Below, piece after piece: positions 2,134-58,397 of a DNA stretch of 64,000 nt (positions are counted from its first letter, which is position 1; each line of letters starts with the position of its first letter). Position numbers and translations under genes: made by a program. Under the pieces are notes generated by a model. It searched no databases, was not told where the DNA came from, and saw only the letters and a list, made by a program, of their open reading frames with translations. Source of the stretch: Octopus vulgaris (taxonomy: Eukaryota); the NCBI GenBank assembly GCA_951406725.2, contig OX597823.1, positions 87,544,001 through 87,608,000 of the forward strand, given 5' to 3'.

Positions 2134-2571
2134 AAACACATAGAATTTAATTAAATTAGAACACATGGACACATTAGTATTATTATACCTAAAATCTCGA
2201 AGAAGTTAAGGAGATGGATAAAGAACAGGTTGTACCTACAACACCATAGTTGTAAGAACAATTTTCAAGGAGACACTGCCTGTCACTGATCTTTTTTTTT
2301 ATGTGGTCACTTTTAATTTATAGACTAGTTTATCAAATCCCTTGTATATTTAAGGTTGAGAGAAACAGAGGGCCGCATTTTTTTGGGGTAGATTTGAGGG
2401 AGTAGACAGACATTCTAGATAGTATAGTCATAAAAATCAAGATTTGTTAGAGGCAAAAATATATAGGGTAGCGAATAATTATCAATTAACATCTTGTTTT
2501 AAGATTTCCCTTACTATACATACATATATATTTTTTTTCTCTCCTTCTTTCTGTGTTTTTTTCTCTGTGTA

Positions 2572-2609
2572 TCTTTCTGTTCAAGAGCGTAGGCTCGAAA
2601 CGTTAAAGA
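2572..2609 (+). ncRNA. minimal hammerhead-like motif with non-canonical core
   Basis: UCUUU-CUGUUCA-A-GAGC(GUAG)GCUC-GAAACGUU-AAAGA; stems I and II perfect, core differs from CUGANGA. Confidence 0.6.
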
Positions 2610-2733
2610 CTTGTTTTAATTATATTTCCTGAGCGTCATACTAATACAATTGTTTGTTTGTATTCCACCTGCCTTCGTCTTTTGTTTATTTCCGTAAACC
2701 TGCCTTCGTCTTTTGTCTATTTTCATAAAACTT

Positions 2734-2736
<3 letters not shown>

Positions 2737-2807
<71 letters not shown>
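2737..2807. repeat. (TA)n microsatellite
   Basis: Perfect TA array. Confidence 0.98.
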
Positions 2808-2809
<2 letters not shown>

Positions 2810-2810
<1 letters not shown>

Positions 2811-3563
2811 GTGGTTTAGTAAGGGAAATCTTAAAACAAGATGTTAATTGATAATTAAGGAGTTGCCCATTAGCAGACTTATAAAAATGAAACAGGGGAA
2901 TTCTTATCATGTAGTATTATAGTTAAATACTTTAAAACAATGTTGCTATGTTGTTGAAGTTTAGGGTTATTCAAAGGATTATTAAGAAGAATATTGTAAC
3001 AAAAGGATAGACATTTATGAATACTTGAGTATATATAAAACTTTTACCACAATAGAGGGAGGAAAAGAAATTATATAGAAATAGTTTAATATCTATACAT
3101 ATTGTACACTTAAATACAAGCTCATCAGATGGTATCTGTGAATATTGATTAAATGATATTTATAATTAGCATGTTCTTTTCCCTCAATACTCTTTTATTA
3201 ATACCAGTAAATACCATTTAATCAATATTCACAGATACCATCTGATGAGTTAGTATTTAAGTATACAATATGTATAAATATTAAACTATTTCTATATAAT
3301 TTCTTTTCCTCCCTCTATTGTGGTAAAAGTTTGATATATACACATACGTATTCATAAACTTCTATCCTTTTGTTACAATATTCTTCTTAAAAATCTCTTG
3401 AGTAATCCTAAGCTTCAACAATATATCAACATTGTTTTAAAGTATTTAACTATACTACTGCATGATAAGACTTCCCCTGTTTCATTTTCATTAATCTGCT
3501 AATGGGCAACTCCTTAATCATCAGTTAACATCTTGTTTTAAGATTTCCCTTAGTAAACCACCA
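2810..3563. mobile_element. foldback element with ~355-bp inverted arms carrying mirrored hammerhead motifs
   Basis: 2810-3163 is the reverse complement of 3207-3563 with scattered mismatches; ~45-bp spacer; (TA)n on both sides. Confidence 0.9.
3462..3531 (-). ncRNA. type I hammerhead motif in right arm of the foldback
   Basis: AUGUUAA-CUGAUGA-...-GAAA-C(AGGGGAA)GUC-UUAUCAU; stem I 6/7, GUC triplet, imperfect stem II; mirror copy at 2841-2910 (+) has core mutated to UUGAUAA. Confidence 0.55.
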
Positions 3564-3653
3564 CTGATATATATATAGGGTAGCGAATATTTTTAGAAAT
3601 ATCACTTCCAGTGGCCTAGCATGTATAAAAAGTCAATAGACAAAATATTCCCC

Positions 3654-4106
3654 ATATAAAATTAGTGTACATATAAACACCAAAGAGGCGGCATTTAACA
3701 GGCAGCCTTACACGTTAGAAGGAGCAGTCAAAACGACCAAATCCACATTTAAGAGCAGTTTCGAAGGGAATGAAAAATAAAAAAAATTGTCTTGTCTTTT
3801 ACAGCTATACCTAGATTTCAAACTCTAATTAGCAAATATAATAACTTGCTGGGCGGAGTTCTCATCAGTGGCTACGCCAAAATATTAACATATAATTTAG
3901 AGACAGAATAACACGTGTTTCATACTTATATATTATAATGTTTCAAATTCACCGCGCAAGCGCGTTTCAGTCGGTAACAAGTGAGTAGCTACCAAATTAA
4001 TCTTCTGAAATTGCTAAAATCTTATTCGTAAAATGCTCCTTCTAGCATGTAAGGCTGCCTGTCAAATGTCGCCGCTTTGATTTTTATATGTACACTAATT
4101 TGATAT
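3654..4106. mobile_element. element bounded by ~72-bp inverted repeats enclosing hammerhead motifs
   Basis: 3654-3726 vs 4034-4106 inverted (AAATTAGTGTACATATAAA...TAGAAGGAGCA / TGCTCCTTCTA...TTTATATGTACACTAATTT). Confidence 0.8.
3803..3873 (-). ncRNA. type I hammerhead ribozyme motif
   Basis: AGCCA-CUGAUGA-GAACUC...GAGUUU-GAAA-UCUAG-GUA-UAGCU; 6-bp stem II with AGCAA/UUGCU extension, self-complementary stem III, stem I 4/5. Confidence 0.75.
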
Positions 4107-4741
4107 ATGTATGTACACATATATATATATATATATATTTACACACGCACACACACAAACACAGACACAAGTTTTATACCACATGAAATCAAATATTTTG
4201 TTTTTGTTAGCAATATGTAACTTCTTGCGCAATCCTCTACATCGTAGATAGATTTAATGAGCTAGTTTTGTGTCAATCAGCCATTCTGTAATTTTGGAGA
4301 AAAAGAAACTGTTAGTGGTCGCTCATAACCATCCTGTTGCTACAGCGCAACTGATTCCGATGACATAAACCGAGAAAAAGAGGACCGAATATGGGGCGAA
4401 GGTGAAAATGAGAAATTAAGTCGTTCTTACAACTTGACTTTCTCTTCTTCTAATAATTCCAGATCAGAAGAGACAAAAAGCATATCGGTGTCCTTAGACA
4501 ACCGGAACAAGTGCTGCAAGGCATTCGAAGCTCGCTGCAAATTCAACTGTCAGTTATAAGGTTAAACTTCTTGACAACGTGCTCAGTGCATTGTTCTCCA
4601 GAAACATAAGCCTACTTATATTCATTGTGATTCAACATGAGATACTTAGCATTTGACGCTTCTGGGCTACCGTAATTTTTGCCGCTTCCGCACTACCAAA
4701 ATATTAACCTCTCTCTTTCTCTGTCTGTCTGACTCTCTCCC

Positions 4742-8551: not shown

Positions 8552-8950
8552 AAAGGCGGCGAGCTGGCAGAACTGATATCACGCCGGGCGAAATGCCTAG
8601 CGGTATTCCGTCTCTCTTTACGTTCTGAGTTCAAATTCCACCGAGGTCGACTTTGCCTTTCATTCTTTCGGGGTCGATTAAATAAGTACCAGTTACGCAC
8701 TGGGGTTCGATATAATCGACTTAATCCGTTTGTCTGACCTTGTTTGTACGCGTGTGTATTTATGTATATCTGTGTGTAAAGAAATAAGTATTTCGTCTGT
8801 CTTTACGGTGAGTTCAAATTCCACCGAGGTCGACTATGCCTTTCATCCTTTTGGGGCTAATGAATTAAGTACTAGTTGCGTACTGTGGTCGACCTAATAG
8901 ACTGGTCCCCGCCTCCATAATTTCGGGCCTTGCGCCTAGATTAGAAAAGG
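8552..8950 (+). mobile_element. SINE family A, dimeric copy
   Basis: Head AAGGCGGCGAGCTGGCAGAA, B-box GAGTTCAAATTCC, core GACTTTGCCTTTCATCCTTTCGGGGTCGAT..AAGTACCAG present twice; core resembles the MetaSINE domain (from recall). Confidence 0.92.
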
Positions 8951-9145
8951 AAATCTCAATATCTGGGACAATAAACGTTTGCAAGATCTTAAGATTTAAA
9001 CGATGATGACTAAAACACGATGTTTTCCTTCACAACCTTCCTTCATACATATATAAATAATACATTCATATATCTGTTTGTATGAATATACAATATATTT
9101 GTTTGTACGCGTGTGTATATGAGAGTATTTATGTATATCTGTGTG

Positions 9146-9339
9146 AGAGGACAAACAAGGACAAAGAGATTAAGTCGATTACATCGACCCCAGTGCGTAA
9201 CTGGTAATTAATTTATCGACCCCGAAAGGATGAAAGGCAAAGTCGACCTCGGTGGAATTTGAACTCAGAATGTAACGGCAGACGAAATACTGCTAAGCAT
9301 TTCGGCCGGCGCGCTAACGTTTCTGCCAGCTCGCCGCCA
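9146..9339 (-). mobile_element. SINE family A monomer
   Basis: Reverse complement of family A head plus unit. Confidence 0.92.
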
Positions 9340-17470: not shown

Positions 17471-17667
17471 TATTCTGAATTATGGGTAGAGATGTCTATG
17501 CAAGTGTGTGTCAAAATGTTCAGATGCATGATTATATATATATATATATACGTATGTGTGTGTGTGGGAGTGTATGTGTGTGTATAATATATATATATGT
17601 GACCGCGTGTGTACCGTTGGTGACTTTTTCCTCTGTCTTCCCTTCTCTAGATCTTTCCTTCTCCTAT

Positions 17668-17702
17668 GTTTCCGACGAAGAGCTCCGCTCGAAACGTTAA
17701 AC
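17668..17702 (+). ncRNA. minimal hammerhead motif (U4C) in a ~210-bp TA-flanked element (~17598-17803)
   Basis: GUUU-CCGACGA-A-GAGC(UCC)GCUC-GAAACGUU-AAAC. Confidence 0.7.
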
Positions 17703-17799
17703 CCTCCTTTTTTCCTTCTTTCCTGAGCGTCCAATAATACTATATTTGTTCCACGTCCTCGCGTTGTTGTGGTTTTTTTTGTGCTTTCATGTTTGGATT

Positions 17800-17850
<51 letters not shown>

Positions 17851-21749: not shown

Positions 21750-21930
21750 TAAGACGGCGAGCTGGCAGAAAGTTTAGCACACAGAGCAAAAAGCTTAGCA
21801 GTATTTCGTCTGCCGCTACGTTCTGAGTTCAAATTACGCCGAGACCGACTTTGCCTTTCATCCTTTCGGGGTCGATGAAATAAGTACCAGTTATAGACTG
21901 AGTCGATATAATCGACTTAATCCGTTTGTG
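21750..21930 (+). mobile_element. SINE family A monomer
   Basis: Head plus unit. Confidence 0.9.
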
Positions 21931-22322
21931 TTTTCTACTCTAGGCACAAGGTCCGAAATTCTTGGGGAGGGGGCCAGGCGATTAGATCGACCCAGTACAC
22001 AACTGGTACTTAATTTTTCAACCCCGAAAGGATGAAAGGCAAAGTTGACTTCAGCGGAATTCATACTCAGAACGTAAAGACAGGCAAAATATCTATTTCT
22101 TTACTACTCACAAGTGGCTAAACACAGAGAGAACAAGGACAGACAAACGGATTAAGTAGATTATATCGACCCAAGTGCGTAACTGATACTTATTTAATCA
22201 ACCCTGAAAGGATAATAGGCAAAGTTGACGTCGGCGGAATTTGAACTCAGAACGTAACGGCAGACGAAATACGGCTACGCATTTCACCCGGCTTACTAAC
22301 GATTTTGCCAGCTCGCCGCCTT
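21931..22322 (-). mobile_element. SINE family A dimer
   Basis: Head, unit 1 and unit 2 with alternative tail; abuts the previous copy tail to tail. Confidence 0.92.
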
Positions 22323-24965: not shown

Positions 24966-26195
24966 AGTTGTAATAAGATGCACCACCCAAAGGCAGACGT
25001 AGATCGCCTTTACCTAAACCCAAGGAGGTCAGGCCTGATCCAATTTGAACTAGCTTACAAAACAACACAACTGGAATCCAAATATCTCGAAATATCGAAT
25101 GATTGGATGCTAAACTCGTGGAAAATAAGACGAAAGAAGCTTCATTCTATCATAAAGGAAAGCAAAAAATTTGCATTGATCTCTGCAGGATACCCAAACT
25201 GAACAACCCGAGGAAGTGCGGCAATTATTGTTGCAAAGAAGGTGAAAATAATGGCAACGAAAAAGCGCACGAGCAATTGGCTGATAGGTGGGAGGAGAAA
25301 CCTCTGCACGGCAAATATGTGACCCGCAGCAAACAAGCTGATGTTGACCAGAAGCAAACCCATCAGTGGCTACGGAGCTCAGGGCTGAAGCAGAGAGCGA
25401 AGGTTTCATCCTGGCTGCTCAAGATCAAGCCTATTAACCCGGAACTACCAGGCCAATGTGATGAAAAATGGAGCAGAACCAAAATGCCGATTCTGCAACG
25501 ACATGATTGAAACAGTGGACCACCTAATTCTGGATGTAAAGTCTTAGCACCAGTGGGTATAAATTAAGACATGACAGAGTTGGCCAATATCTACACTGGC
25601 TAATAAGTCGGCATTACAATATCAAAGCTGCCGATAAGTGGTATAATCACCACCCTGAGGCTGTAACTGAAGGAGAAAATGTAACCATTCTGTGGGACTT
25701 TCCAGTACATACAGACCGAACCATCAAGGCCAATAAACCAGATATTGTTGTGAAAGACCAAAACAATAAAGTTTGCTTATTGATCGACATGAGCATCCCA
25801 TGTGATCATAATATCTCAGCGAAAAGTTTGACAGCTCAGAAAATATAAAGACCTACTCATTGAAATTGAAAAAATGTGGCATCTCAAGCGGTTACAATAC
25901 CAGTGATCGTGGAGCACTAGGAATGATCAAGAGGAACTGAAAATTATATGAGAATGATCCTGGCTTACCATCCCCAAAGTGCAAAAGATTGTCTTAACTG
26001 GTACATCACACGTATTGAGAAGAGCATTGTCGATGTGAGAACTGTTGCTGCTCATGTATTTTAATTTAACTTTAAAAAAAAATGAACGAACTATTGAGTT
26101 TGGTTTAATGGCCTACCAATGTATATTATGAGTTTCTTTGCCTAGAGTCGGAAGACACTCGGCAAGAAATGGAACAAATTTGAAAGAAGAAAAAA

Positions 26196-31049: not shown

Positions 31050-31515
31050 AGAAAGAAGGGTTCATCCCAATATTGAAGATGTTATCCGTTGAGTGTATAA
31101 TGTTTAGTTTTTCAGTAATGCAGTGTTCACATTTAGTACCCCGTCCTCTCTGTTTTGGCTTCAGTTAAAATTTCCATTCTATCTGGAGACTGCTTATTCC
31201 ATCTTTCAATTCCCATATTAAATTAGCCAGGGATTTTGAATGTTTTTTTATATAGTTTTGTCTTTGAATGACCCAAGATGCTGAGTATATCTTACCTTGA
31301 ACGAGTTGCCCCTCATTCCAATATACGTCTTTGCTACTCCGTTGGCGTCCGTGATCTTGGCCTTGTATACGACTTCTTTCTCGTGACAGTTGTTGTTTAG
31401 AGGGCATCAATTTTCTGGATGAACAGTTGCATTGCCTTTCGGGAGTGATTCTCGCGTGTTTGTATTGAAGGTGATTCTTACTTCTCTTAATATGAAACGA
31501 ACAGTATCCTTAAGT
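31050..31515 (-). pseudogene. Penelope-like element GIY-YIG endonuclease remnant
   Basis: QCNC..CPLNNNC..EVVYKAKI...KTYIG...FKVRYTQH..SF...SLANLIWELK...IEW...CEHCITEK with frameshifts and a stop; the element probably extends to ~30540. Confidence 0.88.
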
Positions 31516-36395: not shown

Positions 36396-36622
36396 ACTTA
36401 CTCTTTTACTCTTTTACTTGTTTCAGTTACTTGACTGCGGCCATGCTGGAGCACCGCCTTTAGTCGAGCAAATCGACTCCAGTACTTATTCTTTGTAAGC
36501 CTAGTACTTATTCTATTAGTCTCTTTTGCGGAACCGCTAAGTTACGGGGACGTAAACATACCAGCATCGGTTGTCAAGCAATATTAGGAAGACAAACACA
36601 AACACACACACACACACACATG

Positions 36623-36654
<32 letters not shown>

Positions 36655-36820
36655 CAACGGACTTCTTTTCAGTTTCCGTCTACCAAATCCACTCACAAGG
36701 CTTTGGTCGGCCCGAGGCTAAAGTAGACGACACTTGCTCAGGGTACCACGCAGTGGGACTAAACCCGCAGCAATGTGGTTGGTAAGCATGCTACTTACCA
36801 CACAGCCACTCTTGCACCTA
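36396..36820 (-). mobile_element. SINE family B, full length
   Basis: As 21215-21627. Confidence 0.95.
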
Positions 36821-37610
36821 TAGCTACTTTATTTCATTAAAATTTGCCATAAACGTATTACAAAGAGTAGCTGCAGGCTGGACATATACATTGATGAGGT
36901 GAATGATGAAATAAGGATGACATTGATGAGAGAAGGCAAAAACGTCCGCCGATTTTCCTCTTCTCTAAAACATTGTTCTTTTTTTTTTAACAGAATAAAC
37001 AAAGCACCTATAGCCACTTACCACACAACCACTCCTGCGCCTATAGCTACTTTATTTCATGAAAGATTCGCCATTAAGACGTTACATAGAGGGGACATAC
37101 AATTACAGACAAACATATAGGGTGTAGCAGCTTAAAATGTTGGTGATTACAATAATATATATATATAATATTTACAATATAAAGTTTTAAAAATTTGGTA
37201 TTATACAGTAGGGCACGGATCCCAGCCATATGGGTAGAACCTTTACTTCTTGATCCGGTCACACTTACCTGGTGCCAGATATACCCAGCTAGCACGCTAC
37301 AGACTTCCATCTTTTCGCAAACATATCTCGTGACAGACACCTCTTCTCCAGCCTGATCTTACTACCGAGGTGGTACACACAGCCACTGCTGCGCCTATCT
37401 ATATTAAATAATAACATGTATATATGATTTAGGCACAAGGCTAATAACTTTAGAGACAAAGTGGTACTCAATTAGTGCAAAACCAATAACCAAGAGGATA
37501 AAATCTTGAGTTGACTGAAATTAACGACAATAAGAAGATATAACTGCTTTTATTGTTGTCCTTCCTTTCTCAATTATGTTCTTACTTTATATATTTTTGC
37601 ATACACACTT

Positions 37611-37999
37611 GGAAAATGGAAGCACTTCGTCGGTTACGACGACGAGGGTTCCGGTTGATCCGATCAACGGAACAGCCTGCTCGTGAAATTAACGTGTAAG
37701 TGGCTGAGCACTCCACAGACACGTGTACACTTAACGTAGTTCTCGGGAATATTCAGCGTGACACAGAGAGTGACAAGGCCGGCCCTTTGAAATACAGGTA
37801 CAACAGAAACAGGAAGTAAGAGTGAGAGAAAGTTGTGGTGAAAGAGTACAGCAGAGATCACCACCATCCCTGCCGGTGCCTCGTGGAGCTTTTATGTGTT
37901 TTCGCTCAATAAACACTCACAACGCCCGGTCTGGGAATCGAAACCGCGATCCTATGACCGCGAGTCCGCTGCCCTAACCACTGGGCCATTGTGCGTCCA
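37611..37999 (-). mobile_element. SINE family C, full length with 11-bp TSD
   Basis: tRNA-like head TGGCCCAGTGGTTAGGGCAGCGGACTCGCGG..GGTTTCGATTCCC; TSD CATACACACTT at 37600-37610 and 38000-38010. Confidence 0.95.
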
Positions 38000-38712
38000 C
38001 ATACACACTTACACACACACACACACGCACGCACACATGCATATGCTCTAACTATATTTTAGACAGATATAAAATCGAAAAGGTTTCGATTAATCTACTT
38101 TTGTCGAATATGCCAAAGCGGAGGAGAGACAGCTAGCGTATAAAGATAGATAGCTAGCTAGAAAGATAGATTAGAAGTGTGTGTTTGTGTGTGAGTCTGT
38201 GCGTCTGTCAGTGCGCGTGGCTGTGCATCTGCCAGTGTGTCTGTCTGTGTATGTGTCTTTGCCTCTGTGTGTATACACACTGCGAATATTTCTGCTATAT
38301 TCTGCTACACTACACGAAATCTCTGTTTATAACCATTCGGGATTTGTGTCTACGATTGAAAATTTTGATATAGATCTTAAATACCACTACCTTGTAAGAA
38401 CTAAATCGATAGAATACATTCTAGACACAAAGTATACGTAAAGTACATTATGCATCTGTGAATAAGCGCCCTATAATCAACACTATGTTGATTCCATATT
38501 TTTTATGAATCACTTTGAAATTACACCAATTTAGTATTTATTTCGAAATTTTATCATCCTCCATTTTGTGAACTATTATTGTTATATGTCTATATTTTAG
38601 TTTAGAATTATTTTATGCTAAACGTTAAATATTTCTATTTCTTCTGCTCTTCAGCCATTTTCTTTTCAGTTATTCTCAATATTTGAGAATTCAGTAATTC
38701 AGTAATACTCAA

Positions 38713-38878
38713 AGGCGCAGGAGTGGCTGTGTGGTAAGTAGCTTGCTAACCAACCACATGGTTCCGGGTTCAGTCCCACTGCGTGACATCTTGGGCAAGT
38801 GTCTTCTGCTATAGCCCTGGGCCGACCAATGCCTAGTGAGTGGATTTGGTAGACGGAAACTGAAAGAAGCCTGTCGTA

Positions 38879-38933
<55 letters not shown>

Positions 38934-39149
38934 ATGTGTTTGTGTGTCTGTGTTTGTCCCCCTAGCATTGCTTGACAACCGATGCTGGTGTGTTTACGTC
39001 CCCGTCACTTAGCGGTTCGGCAAAAGAGACCGATAGAATAAGTACTGGGCTTACAAGGAATAAGTCCCGGGGTCGATTTGCTCGACTAAAGGCGGTGCTC
39101 CAGCATGGCCGCAGTCAAATGACTGAAACAAGTAAAAGAGTAAAGAGTA
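38713..39149 (+). mobile_element. SINE family B, full length
   Basis: As 21215-21627. Confidence 0.95.
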
Positions 39150-48364: not shown

Positions 48365-48417
48365 GATGGGTGCTGATGAAGGCGTAAAACCCTTGAAATA
48401 TGGTATGTAGGCCTATT
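48365..48417 (+). ncRNA. type I hammerhead ribozyme motif
   Basis: GAUGGGUG-CUGAUGA-AGG..CCUU-GAAAUAU(GGU)AUGUA-GGCCUAUU; intact core, G-G mismatch at the base of stem I. Confidence 0.65.
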
Positions 48418-48514
48418 ACATATTTTCCCTCTTTGATCTCATTAGTGTTTATATCAGGCGGTTCGGATACGAAACATTGTACCAAAATCAGTGCTGGCTA
48501 TAATTTCTGTTACT

Positions 48515-56839: not shown

Positions 56840-58397
56840 GGGGTAATTGAAGGGGACGGAATAAGGCATTCAGAGATGAAGGAAAGGATCAGGAGAGAAT
56901 GTTATCGAAGAGTGAGAGCAATACTTAAGACAGAGCTGAATGTAAGAAACAAATCGAAGCGATCAATGCATTAGCCATACCAGTCGTGACTTACAGTTTC
57001 AATATCATTAACTGGTCAATTACTGAAATATGTCAGCTTGACAGAAAAATACGAAAACTGTTGACAATGCATAGAATGCACCATCCTAAGGCGGATACAG
57101 AACGAATTTATCTGCCAAGAAAAGAGGGAGGCCGTGGTCTTTTACAACTGGCAATAACAATGAAGATTGCTACAATTGGCCTAGACACCTACCAGAAAAA
57201 GTCTGAGAACTGGATGTTAAAACTTGTCTCAAAACATGAAAACAAGAAAGCATCATACTCAGTAACAAAACAGGCAAAGGAATATCTAAGTGAATTCTGA
57301 ATACAACAAATTTCGGAATTAGAGATAGACATACAAGAAACAAGCACAGAAAAAGCTAAGCGCATGAAAACCCGTGCTAAAACTGCGGCCTTAGATATTC
57401 TGAATGATAAATGGCAAGAAAAAACTCTCTATGGAAAATACCCAAAGAGAGCGAATAATGCAGATATTGACAAAGCCCTGACTCATCAATGGCTAATGGC
57501 CTCTGGCTTAAAATCTGAAACAGTGGGGTTTATCATAGCAGCTGAAGATCAATGCCTACCAACAAGAAACTACCTGGCCAACATATTAAAGAACGGCAGT
57601 AGCCCAACATGTCGTGTATGTCGACAACAAAATGAAACCATTGATCATGTTGTATCCAAGTGCAGTCTTCTAGCGCCTACAGAGTATCTCAACAGGCATG
57701 ATAGAGCTGCACAATATATTCACTGGGTAATTTGCAAAAACCTGGATTTGCCCCATGAAAAAAACTGGTGCTTGAAAATGACCACATCTCACTCCTCTGG
57801 AACTTCACCATTCAAACTGACAGAAAGATAGATGCAAATACGCCAGACATCATATTGAAAGACTTCAGACAAAGAACAGCCTCCTCATTGATATAACTGT
57901 CCCAATTGACATAAACGTATCTGTCAAGAACTACCAAAAACTGAGCAAATATAAAGATCTTGAAATAGAAATCAGCAAAATGTGGAACCTGAAGACTAAA
58001 ACAATACCTGTTGTCATAAGTGCTCTGGGAATGATACCGAAAGGAGCTGATTGCTACCTAACTCAGATACCAGGAAACTCCAAAATGGCAGAAATTCAAA
58101 AGATAGTGCAAATGGGAACTGTTCATATCCTACGCAAAATACTTTCTATGTAATCTCAAGGTTTAAAACAAACAATTTTTATTTTTTATTTTATTTATTT
58201 ATTTTTTAAAATTTATTTATTTATTTTTTATTTACTTATTTATTTAGTAGACATTCCCTAGTACGACGCACAAAAAAAACAAATATATGGCACACTTGGC
58301 ATAACAACAACGTGAACTTCTAACCTGTTGTCTCTTGAGGTCTCTGGGTGAGACTTGGAGCCAACTTGTACCAATATAAAGCAAAAGTCAAACATAG
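56839..58397 (+). mobile_element. 5'-truncated R4/Dong-clade non-LTR retrotransposon
   Basis: AINALAIPVVTYSF, MHHPKADTERIYLPRKEGGRGL, LYGKY, GLKSETVGFIIAAEDQ, CRVC..ETIDHVVSKC, RHD, PDII, KYKDL; stop at 58153; (TAA)n on both sides. Confidence 0.95.

What the first reader, a model, noticed from the sequence alone, without database searches (positions are those of the whole stretch)
2810..3563. 750-bp foldback in (TA)n with a hammerhead mirrored near each end
Seen: ~355-bp inverted arms with a ~45-bp spacer. A hammerhead lies ~30 nt inside each terminus (intact core at 3462-3531 minus, mutated at 2841-2910 plus). A second CUGAUGAG followed by a 10-bp hairpin but lacking GAAA lies near the centre (3242-3285, mirrored in the left arm). 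Established: Penelope pLTRs often occur in inverted orientation. Inference: a non-coding palindromic retroelement whose transcript from either strand would self-trim and fold into long dsRNA.
Basis: partly seen in the sequence, partly recalled or inferred. Interest (0 to 1): 0.75.

Follow-up and report, generated by a model that had tools for sequence, protein, structure and literature searches.

The report
TA-embedded foldback repeat, no intact ribozyme
This is a real 759-base near-palindrome from a very abundant non-coding repeat family, sitting in a TA microsatellite; it is likely an old non-autonomous foldback transposon, and its supposed self-cutting RNA motifs are incomplete in both arms.

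Summary
The palindrome is real: 2808-3566, arms of about 355 bp with 28 substitutions, a 45-bp spacer, and AT runs on both sides. Contigs from 4 of 4 public runs show that arm and spacer belong to a high-copy family (summed depth hundreds of times that of the single-copy flank).

The hammerhead claim mostly fails. The right-arm motif has CUGAUGA and GAAA but no helix II in a documented register. Its G8 is a minority allele: 94-100% of family depth reads A. The left arm has a helix II but lacks G12. Predicted hammerhead helices have probability 0.00 in both arms. The central CUGAUGAG has no GAAA. A decayed hammerhead is not excluded: the two cores differ by a compensatory C3-G8/U3-A8 swap known from Schistosoma Penelope elements.

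Best reading (0.5): a (TA)n-targeting foldback MITE, like plant MuTAnT/SaTar elements, in an array of unrelated TA-linked elements. Main rival (0.32): an inverted Penelope pLTR pair with a dead ribozyme. Whether other copies are palindromic was not testable. A better-formed hammerhead lies in the neighbouring repeat (3876-3801, minus), outside the finding.

The parts
2737..2807 (.). (TA)35 target tract, left flank; ends ...ATAT against the element
2808..3162 (+). left arm, about 355 bp; carries the family-majority letter at 6 of the 9 near-fixed sites listed for the right arm
2841..2910 (+). hammerhead-like relic: core U3-A8 (2848-2854), 4-bp helix II flanked by U..U, A in place of G12 (2883), second GAAA at 2889, UUC at 2901-2903
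3122..3128 (-). central CUGAUGA(G), left-arm copy; no GAAA within 70 nt
3163..3207 (.). 45-bp spacer; belongs to the repeat family (24-36 contigs per run carry the 3193 variant)
3208..3566 (-). right arm; outer end reads CAGTGG..., left end reads GAG--GTGG...
3242..3248 (+). central CUGAUGA(G), right-arm copy; predicted to pair with upstream CAGAU; no GAAA
3462..3531 (-). hammerhead-like relic: core C3-G8 (3524-3518), GAAA at 3489 and 3483, GUC at 3471-3469, helix II broken; G8 is a minority allele
3567..3577 (.). 11-nt AT run linking the foldback to the next, unrelated repeat
2459..2516 (+). chimeric fragment: 19 nt of the right neighbour's end joined to 41 nt identical to the left-arm tip (inverted); likely a local templated copy

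Best explanation
The 759-bp palindrome belongs to a high-copy non-coding repeat family and is likely a non-autonomous foldback DNA transposon (MITE-like) that inserted into a (TA)n tract. Shown: long inverted arms ending at equivalent bases, a short spacer, AT-run flanks, family membership of arm and spacer, and no coding match in the searches run. Inferred: a transposase supplied in trans (MULE- or hAT-type; not identified) recognised the ends and pasted the element into the microsatellite with an even-length duplication that the TA run hides. The arms would then have drifted apart (about 8%, roughly 11 My if the octopus rate quoted in PMC13282606 applies). The hammerhead-like letters are inferred to be parts of a local hairpin in the arm, with the CUGAUGA completed by a minority substitution. 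If transcribed through, the element would give about 350 bp of dsRNA but would not self-cleave.
For: Symmetric ends, no 30-40 nt one-sided tail, flanks AT|...|AT. Arm depth 7,765-36,120 vs 16.4 in the flank (X1), and similarly high in X2, X3 and X5. Spacer/arm depth ratio 0.60, 0.20, 0.44, 0.47, near the 0.5 expected if most copies have two arms (from; crude). No depth gradient rising toward the outer end, and internally deleted relatives (3325-3462 in 3 of 4 runs; 3232-3521 in X5). Both terminal motifs fail the hammerhead test. No Pfam hit of note in 9 frames; protein searches empty or spurious. Precedents: MuTAnT, a 292-bp foldback in (TA)n (PMC4486113); gSaTar arrays of unrelated TA-linked elements with 10-bp TSDs, some nearly all TIR (PMC5907723); pineapple mMITEs (PMC8449440).
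Against: No second full palindrome could be seen: contig pieces are short, only one arm was laid, and none of the 15 joints shown (33 hidden) folds back at the spacer. No transposase partner and no non-TA copy with a TSD. The precedents are plant elements. Octopus Penelope families also prefer (TA)n (PMC8557442 File S1), and both neighbours look Penelope-derived. The C3-G8/U3-A8 swap between arms has naive p=0.002. Two CUGANGA in one arm occur in 0.25% of shuffles. One X3 contig has letters resembling an inversion at 3349, which would suit variable fold-back points (table 7; single contig).
Confidence: 0.5

Rival explanations
1. Two inverted copies of a Penelope-like pLTR or 3' fragment, laid down in one retrotransposition event by fold-back priming at a (TA)n target; the terminal motif is a decayed type-I hammerhead, with different lesions in the two arms.
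For: The cores differ by the compensatory C3-G8 / U3-A8 change reported for about 1,300 S. mansoni PLE hammerheads; the same paper reports paired hammerheads 100-700 bp apart on opposite strands (PMC4209133), and these two cores are 676 bp apart. The left arm's U-helix II-U layout matches Hydra-clade hammerheads. Motif rarity 0.17%. Inverted PLE structures and (TA)n preference are established. Penelope-like neighbours share the tract.
Against: Family-level covariation is not shown: A8 reaches 100% in X5, yet a matching change at position 3 (3524) is not among the 40 rows displayed. 142 rows are hidden; the displayed rows all reach about 99% in some run, which is my reading of the table. The majority letter at 3491 does not restore helix II. 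The 'stem I' partner pairs better with the core itself. The motifs point inward (tail-to-tail), the rarer PLE layout. No similarity to either neighbour or to Octopus Naiad/Hydra sequences by short motifs.
Confidence: 0.32
2. The family is not palindromic; this locus became a foldback secondarily, by local inverted duplication or by two independent insertions in opposite orientation in an unstable TA tract.
For: The right arm carries minority letters at 6 sites where the left arm has the majority letter. A chimeric local copy at 2459-2516 shows rearrangement here. Other inverted pairs of dispersed repeats lie in the window (8555-9338, 21751-22322, 36405-39144).
Against: Both arms end at equivalent bases. 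Spacer depth is roughly half of arm depth in 3 of 4 runs. Both arms share minority letters at 3511 and probably 3491.
Confidence: 0.1
3. One reading: an active palindromic retroelement whose transcript from either strand self-trims through a hammerhead and folds into long dsRNA.
For: Motif letters present in mirror positions; compensatory 3-8 change; strong predicted duplex.
Against: The left copy lacks G12; the right copy lacks helix II; hammerhead helices have probability 0.00; forcing the fold costs 18-24 kcal/mol (15 for the neighbour's better motif, so this test discriminates weakly); G8 is carried by 0-6% of family depth.
Confidence: 0.05

Closest known systems
Microsatellite-targeting Mutator-like MITEs: MuTAnT (PMC4486113), gSaTar (PMC5907723), Ac-mMITE (PMC8449440)
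   Same: Non-coding foldback with long TIRs, flanked by (TA)n, high copy, in non-nested arrays of unrelated elements joined by TA runs; a 10-bp TSD would fit the register seen here.
   Different: All are plant elements; the arms here are longer (about 355 bp); no MULE transposase or TSD is shown here; the neighbours look retroelement-derived.
hAT/Buster MITEs such as Mar (PMC3517528)
   Same: End begins CAG; an 8-bp duplication ATATATAT with central TA fits nnnTAnnn; AT-rich, non-coding.
   Different: hAT TIRs are 5-27 bp; the left end reads GAG; a TA tract fits any even-length TSD, so the match is not diagnostic.
Penelope-like elements with inverted pLTRs and minimal type-I hammerheads (PMC4209133, PMC8557442, PMC3846280)
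   Same: (TA)n target, inverted arrangement, opposite-strand hammerhead-like motifs under 700 bp apart, U3-A8 core variant.
   Different: No complete hammerhead, no G10.1-C11.1 pair, no tail, no ORF or pLTR homology found, motifs point inward.
Non-LTR retrozymes (bioRxiv 10.64898/2026.07.22.740005)
   Same: Short non-coding repeat with hammerhead-like letters.
   Different: Retrozymes are head-to-tail tandem units, each with a complete type-I hammerhead; this is an inverted pair. The right neighbour fits that class better.

Membership tests
Type-I hammerhead ribozyme (terminal motif) | Core CUGANGA, or the U3-A8 variant | tested here: met
   Right C3-G8, left U3-A8; family majority is A8, position 3 unresolved
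Type-I hammerhead ribozyme (terminal motif) | GAAA directly after a helix II of about 4 bp or more, in the same copy | tested here: not met
   Right: 0-1 bp in documented registers; left: 4 bp but A at G12
Type-I hammerhead ribozyme (terminal motif) | Helix I and an NUH cleavage triplet | tested here: inconclusive
   6 of 7 pairs possible with GUC/UUC, but predicted probability 0.00 because the partner strand pairs with the core
Type-I hammerhead ribozyme (central motif) | GAAA downstream of the core | tested here: not met
   None within 70 nt in either arm; family alleles there are not fully visible
Type-I hammerhead ribozyme | Self-cleavage | not testable with these tools
   No raw RNA reads listed; needs an assay
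Penelope-like element | RT plus GIY-YIG ORF, or homology to the pLTR of an autonomous PLE | tested here: inconclusive
   No hit in 9 frames against Pfam, one frame against 5.8 billion proteins, one frame against 1.84 billion; short-motif searches of published Naiad/Hydra/Chlamys sequences negative; other PLE clades and TE libraries not available
Penelope-like element | (TA)n target preference | tested here: met
   One locus only; shared with microsatellite-targeting MITEs
Penelope-like element | Variable 5' truncation, variable inversion points, 30-40 nt tail | tested here: inconclusive
   No tail at this locus; no clear depth gradient; one contig hints at another inversion point
Non-LTR retrozyme | Head-to-tail tandem units, each with a complete type-I hammerhead | tested here: not met
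   Inverted pair with no complete motif
MITE / foldback DNA transposon | Terminal inverted repeats ending at equivalent bases | tested here: met
MITE / foldback DNA transposon | No coding capacity, high copy number | tested here: met
   (depth is only a rough proxy for copy number)
MITE / foldback DNA transposon | Target-site duplication of superfamily-specific length | tested here: inconclusive
   AT|...|AT register fits 8 or 10 bp, not a TA dinucleotide or 9 bp, if the ends are intact; hidden by the microsatellite
MITE / foldback DNA transposon | Uniform two-arm structure across copies | not testable with these tools
   No genome held; spacer/arm depth is only suggestive
MITE / foldback DNA transposon | Autonomous partner sharing the termini | not testable with these tools
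   No genome held

The most novel reading that the evidence does not exclude
A high-copy Penelope-derived element that moves as a whole palindrome, carrying an inward-facing type-I hammerhead near each end, with C3-G8 and U3-A8 core forms coexisting in subfamilies: a 'foldback retrozyme' that cuts off its 5' tip and rebuilds it from the complementary arm. This locus would be a decayed copy.
Probability: 0.07. Interest if true: 0.6.

Novelty: new member of a known kind. Interest (0 to 1): 0.2.

Why it matters
As a foldback repeat in a repeat-rich animal genome it is ordinary. Modest value: if it proves to be a (TA)n-targeting foldback MITE, it would extend a pattern described from plants (TA-linked arrays of unrelated elements) to an animal; and hundreds of 350-bp hairpins would be a source of dsRNA for editing or silencing. 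Only the low-probability ribozyme reading would surprise specialists.

Tried and rejected
Whole-genome copy survey: no genome held. Rfam: no hit at gathering thresholds in the window and no hammerhead family at E<=10 in 2400-3700. Rfam also missed the neighbour's better motif, so these blanks are not evidence. Expression: no RNA holder listed; nothing concluded. DNA pattern scans: 0 matches in metagenome, viral and genome contigs. A second metagenome scan gave 6 loci, all 6 matching only the 21-24 nt seed, and dropped as chance. Idea that the arm is a decayed GIY-YIG coding region (by-eye resemblance): not supported in the two frames searched; the 2 phmmer hits were repeat-inflated, an NRPS and a tandem-repeat protein. 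Idea, by eye and untested, that the central motif is a hammerhead with a long loop III (6-bp stem I and 5-bp stem III can be drawn): set aside because GAA is absent in both arms. Homology of the arm to either neighbour: none above shuffles. Other copies in the window: only the 2468-2519 fragment. Published octopus repeat library: not in the held supplement; it is on Zenodo and could not be seen. Earlier findings: 4 look-ups, nothing. Promoter scan at chance level and not apt for an animal; no tRNA genes.

Full report
Observation. The window is a microsatellite-rich animal sequence; its repeats look octopus-like to me (recalled, not shown by a call). The element runs from 2808 to 3566 (759 bp, 27% GC). 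Global alignment of the arms gives 327 identical columns, 28 substitutions (16 transitions) and 4 gap columns, around a 45-nt spacer. The left flank is (TA)35; the right is an 11-nt AT run. Both ends sit in the same register...ATAT|element|ATAT..., reading GAG--GTGG on the left and CAGTGGTGG on the right. A transcript of either strand is predicted to be 88-90% paired at about -478 kcal/mol.

Family. No genome was held. Of 24 runs listed, 20 hold part of the stretch, none half of it, under 6 organism labels. I laid 4 of them on 3160-4700: spacer, right arm, right neighbour and single-copy flank. Summed contig depth over the arm was 7,765-36,120 in X1 against 16.4 in the flank; mean arm/flank ratios were about 1,126, 504, 527 and 325. 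The tool warns that this is not a copy number, but a high-copy family in 4 of 4 runs is clear. The spacer is part of it (24-36 contigs per run carry the 3193 variant), at 0.60, 0.20, 0.44 and 0.47 of arm depth. Relatives with internal deletions exist (3325-3462 in X1, X2, X5). Whether other copies are palindromic could not be seen: pieces are short, and 33 joints and 1,115 loose ends were hidden. In the flank X2 differs by 5 of 466 letters and the others by about 4%. One X1 contig (depth 232) matches 3411-3600, across the junction into the neighbour, with 1 difference; this is unexplained.

Terminal motif. On the minus strand the right arm reads CUGAUGA (3524-3518), GAAA (3489 or 3483) and GUC (3471-3469), with 6 of 7 possible stem I pairs. 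That combination occurs in 5 of 3000 shuffled arms. Helix II, however, has 0-1 bp in the three documented registers. The left arm has U-[4 bp]-U, as in Hydra-clade hammerheads (PMC8557442 File S2), but A at G12. In both arms stem I and helix II have probability 0.00, because the downstream UUAUCA pairs with the core itself in a local hairpin. At G8 (3519), 95.8, 98.4, 93.8 and 100% of family depth reads the A allele, so the 'intact' core is a minority form.

Evidence for a ribozyme past. The left core is UUGAUAA, i.e. U3-A8 against the right arm's C3-G8. This compensatory variant is reported for S. mansoni PLE hammerheads, as are pairs of hammerheads 100-700 bp apart on opposite strands (PMC4209133, text parts 1-2 of 4). 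Naively the double transition has p=0.002. Against it: a change at 3524 is not among the 40 rows displayed, all of which reach about 99% in some run (my reading; 142 rows hidden), while 3519 reaches 100% in X5. I leave a decayed hammerhead at about one in three and an active one at about one in twenty. Single 3 or 8 mutants abolish cleavage in a PLE hammerhead (PMC11167929, passages), and minimal PLE hammerheads do not cleave as monomers.

Central motif. CUGAUGAG occurs at 3242 plus and 3128 minus with no GAAA within 70 nt, and is predicted to pair with upstream CAGAU. One CUGANGA per arm arises in 7.8% of shuffles, two in 0.25%.

Coding. Nine frames read through with X gave no Pfam family of note (one hit at E=0.13). 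One frame found nothing among 3 candidates. Another gave 2 weak, repeat-inflated hits. The other frames were not searched against the large collections.

Context. The foldback lies between two unrelated elements that both end CCCTATATA toward it. The right one (3571 to about 4106) is very high copy, occurs in tandem in other contigs, has about 70-bp inverted ends, and carries a type-I hammerhead-like motif at 3876-3801 minus with a 6-bp helix II at probability 0.98-1.0; its stems I and III are weak. The left one (2520-2737) has a degenerate motif and a relative near 17660-17750. At 2459-2516, 19 nt of the right neighbour's end are joined to 41 nt identical to the left-arm tip (38 of 41 to the right arm), probably a local templated copy.

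Mechanism. I favour a non-autonomous foldback DNA transposon moved in trans (0.5). Shown: anatomy, family, target tract, failure of the ribozyme test. Inferred: class, transposase, TSD and age. The arm-to-arm distance of 0.083 gives about 11.6 My at the rate quoted in PMC13282606 (parts 1-2 of 3), if that rate applies. Plant precedents match the anatomy and the TA-linked array: MuTAnT (PMC4486113, passages), gSaTar (PMC5907723, abstract and section 13), Ac-mMITE (PMC8449440, passages). The end register also fits a Buster-type 8-bp site (PMC3517528, passages). The rival is an inverted Penelope pair with a dead ribozyme (0.32): Octopus Naiad and Hydra prefer (TA)n and PLEs form inverted structures (PMC8557442, passages and supplement parts 2 and 24 plus searches; PMC3846280, passages). 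It is not a retrozyme as defined in bioRxiv 10.64898/2026.07.22.740005 (part 1 of 5; supplements not seen).

Novelty. No listing in 9 literature searches described this family, but repeat libraries could not be searched and probably hold it. Either leading reading makes it a new member of a known kind. Interest 0.2.

Noticed in passing
window 3571-4106 (motif 3876-3801, minus): Very high-copy repeat with a better-formed type-I hammerhead-like motif (6-bp helix II, GAAA, short stem III, GUA), inverted ends at 3654-3726 / 4034-4106 plus an 83-nt extension to the TA run, and tandem junctions in other contigs; looks like a Penelope pLTR derivative or retrozyme.
   Followed up: partly
window 2520-2737 and about 17620-17800: Two related Penelope-like end fragments with degenerate hammerhead-like motifs (helix II and GAAAC present, first core half altered), each running into a TA tract.
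   Followed up: partly
window 2459-2516: Chimeric fragment joining the right neighbour's end to an inverted exact copy of the left-arm tip, i.e. sequence from both feet of the palindrome; suggests templated repair or template switching.
   Followed up: partly
window 3411-3600 in run X1: A contig of depth 232 matches arm end, TA run and neighbour start with 1 difference in 190, although that run's single-copy flank differs by about 4%; the junction may be amplified as a unit.
   Followed up: no
window 48365-48420, plus: CUGAUGA...GAAA with 3-bp helix II, 4-bp stem III and 6 of 7 stem I pairs; another hammerhead candidate.
   Followed up: no
window 8555-9338, 21751-22322, 36405-39144: Other inverted pairs of dispersed repeats; foldbacks are common in this window.
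   Followed up: no
window 31165-31509 minus; 25103-25848 and 56929-58153 plus: Decayed ORFs that by eye resemble a Hydra-type GIY-YIG end and non-LTR retrotransposon C-terminal regions; not searched.
   Followed up: no
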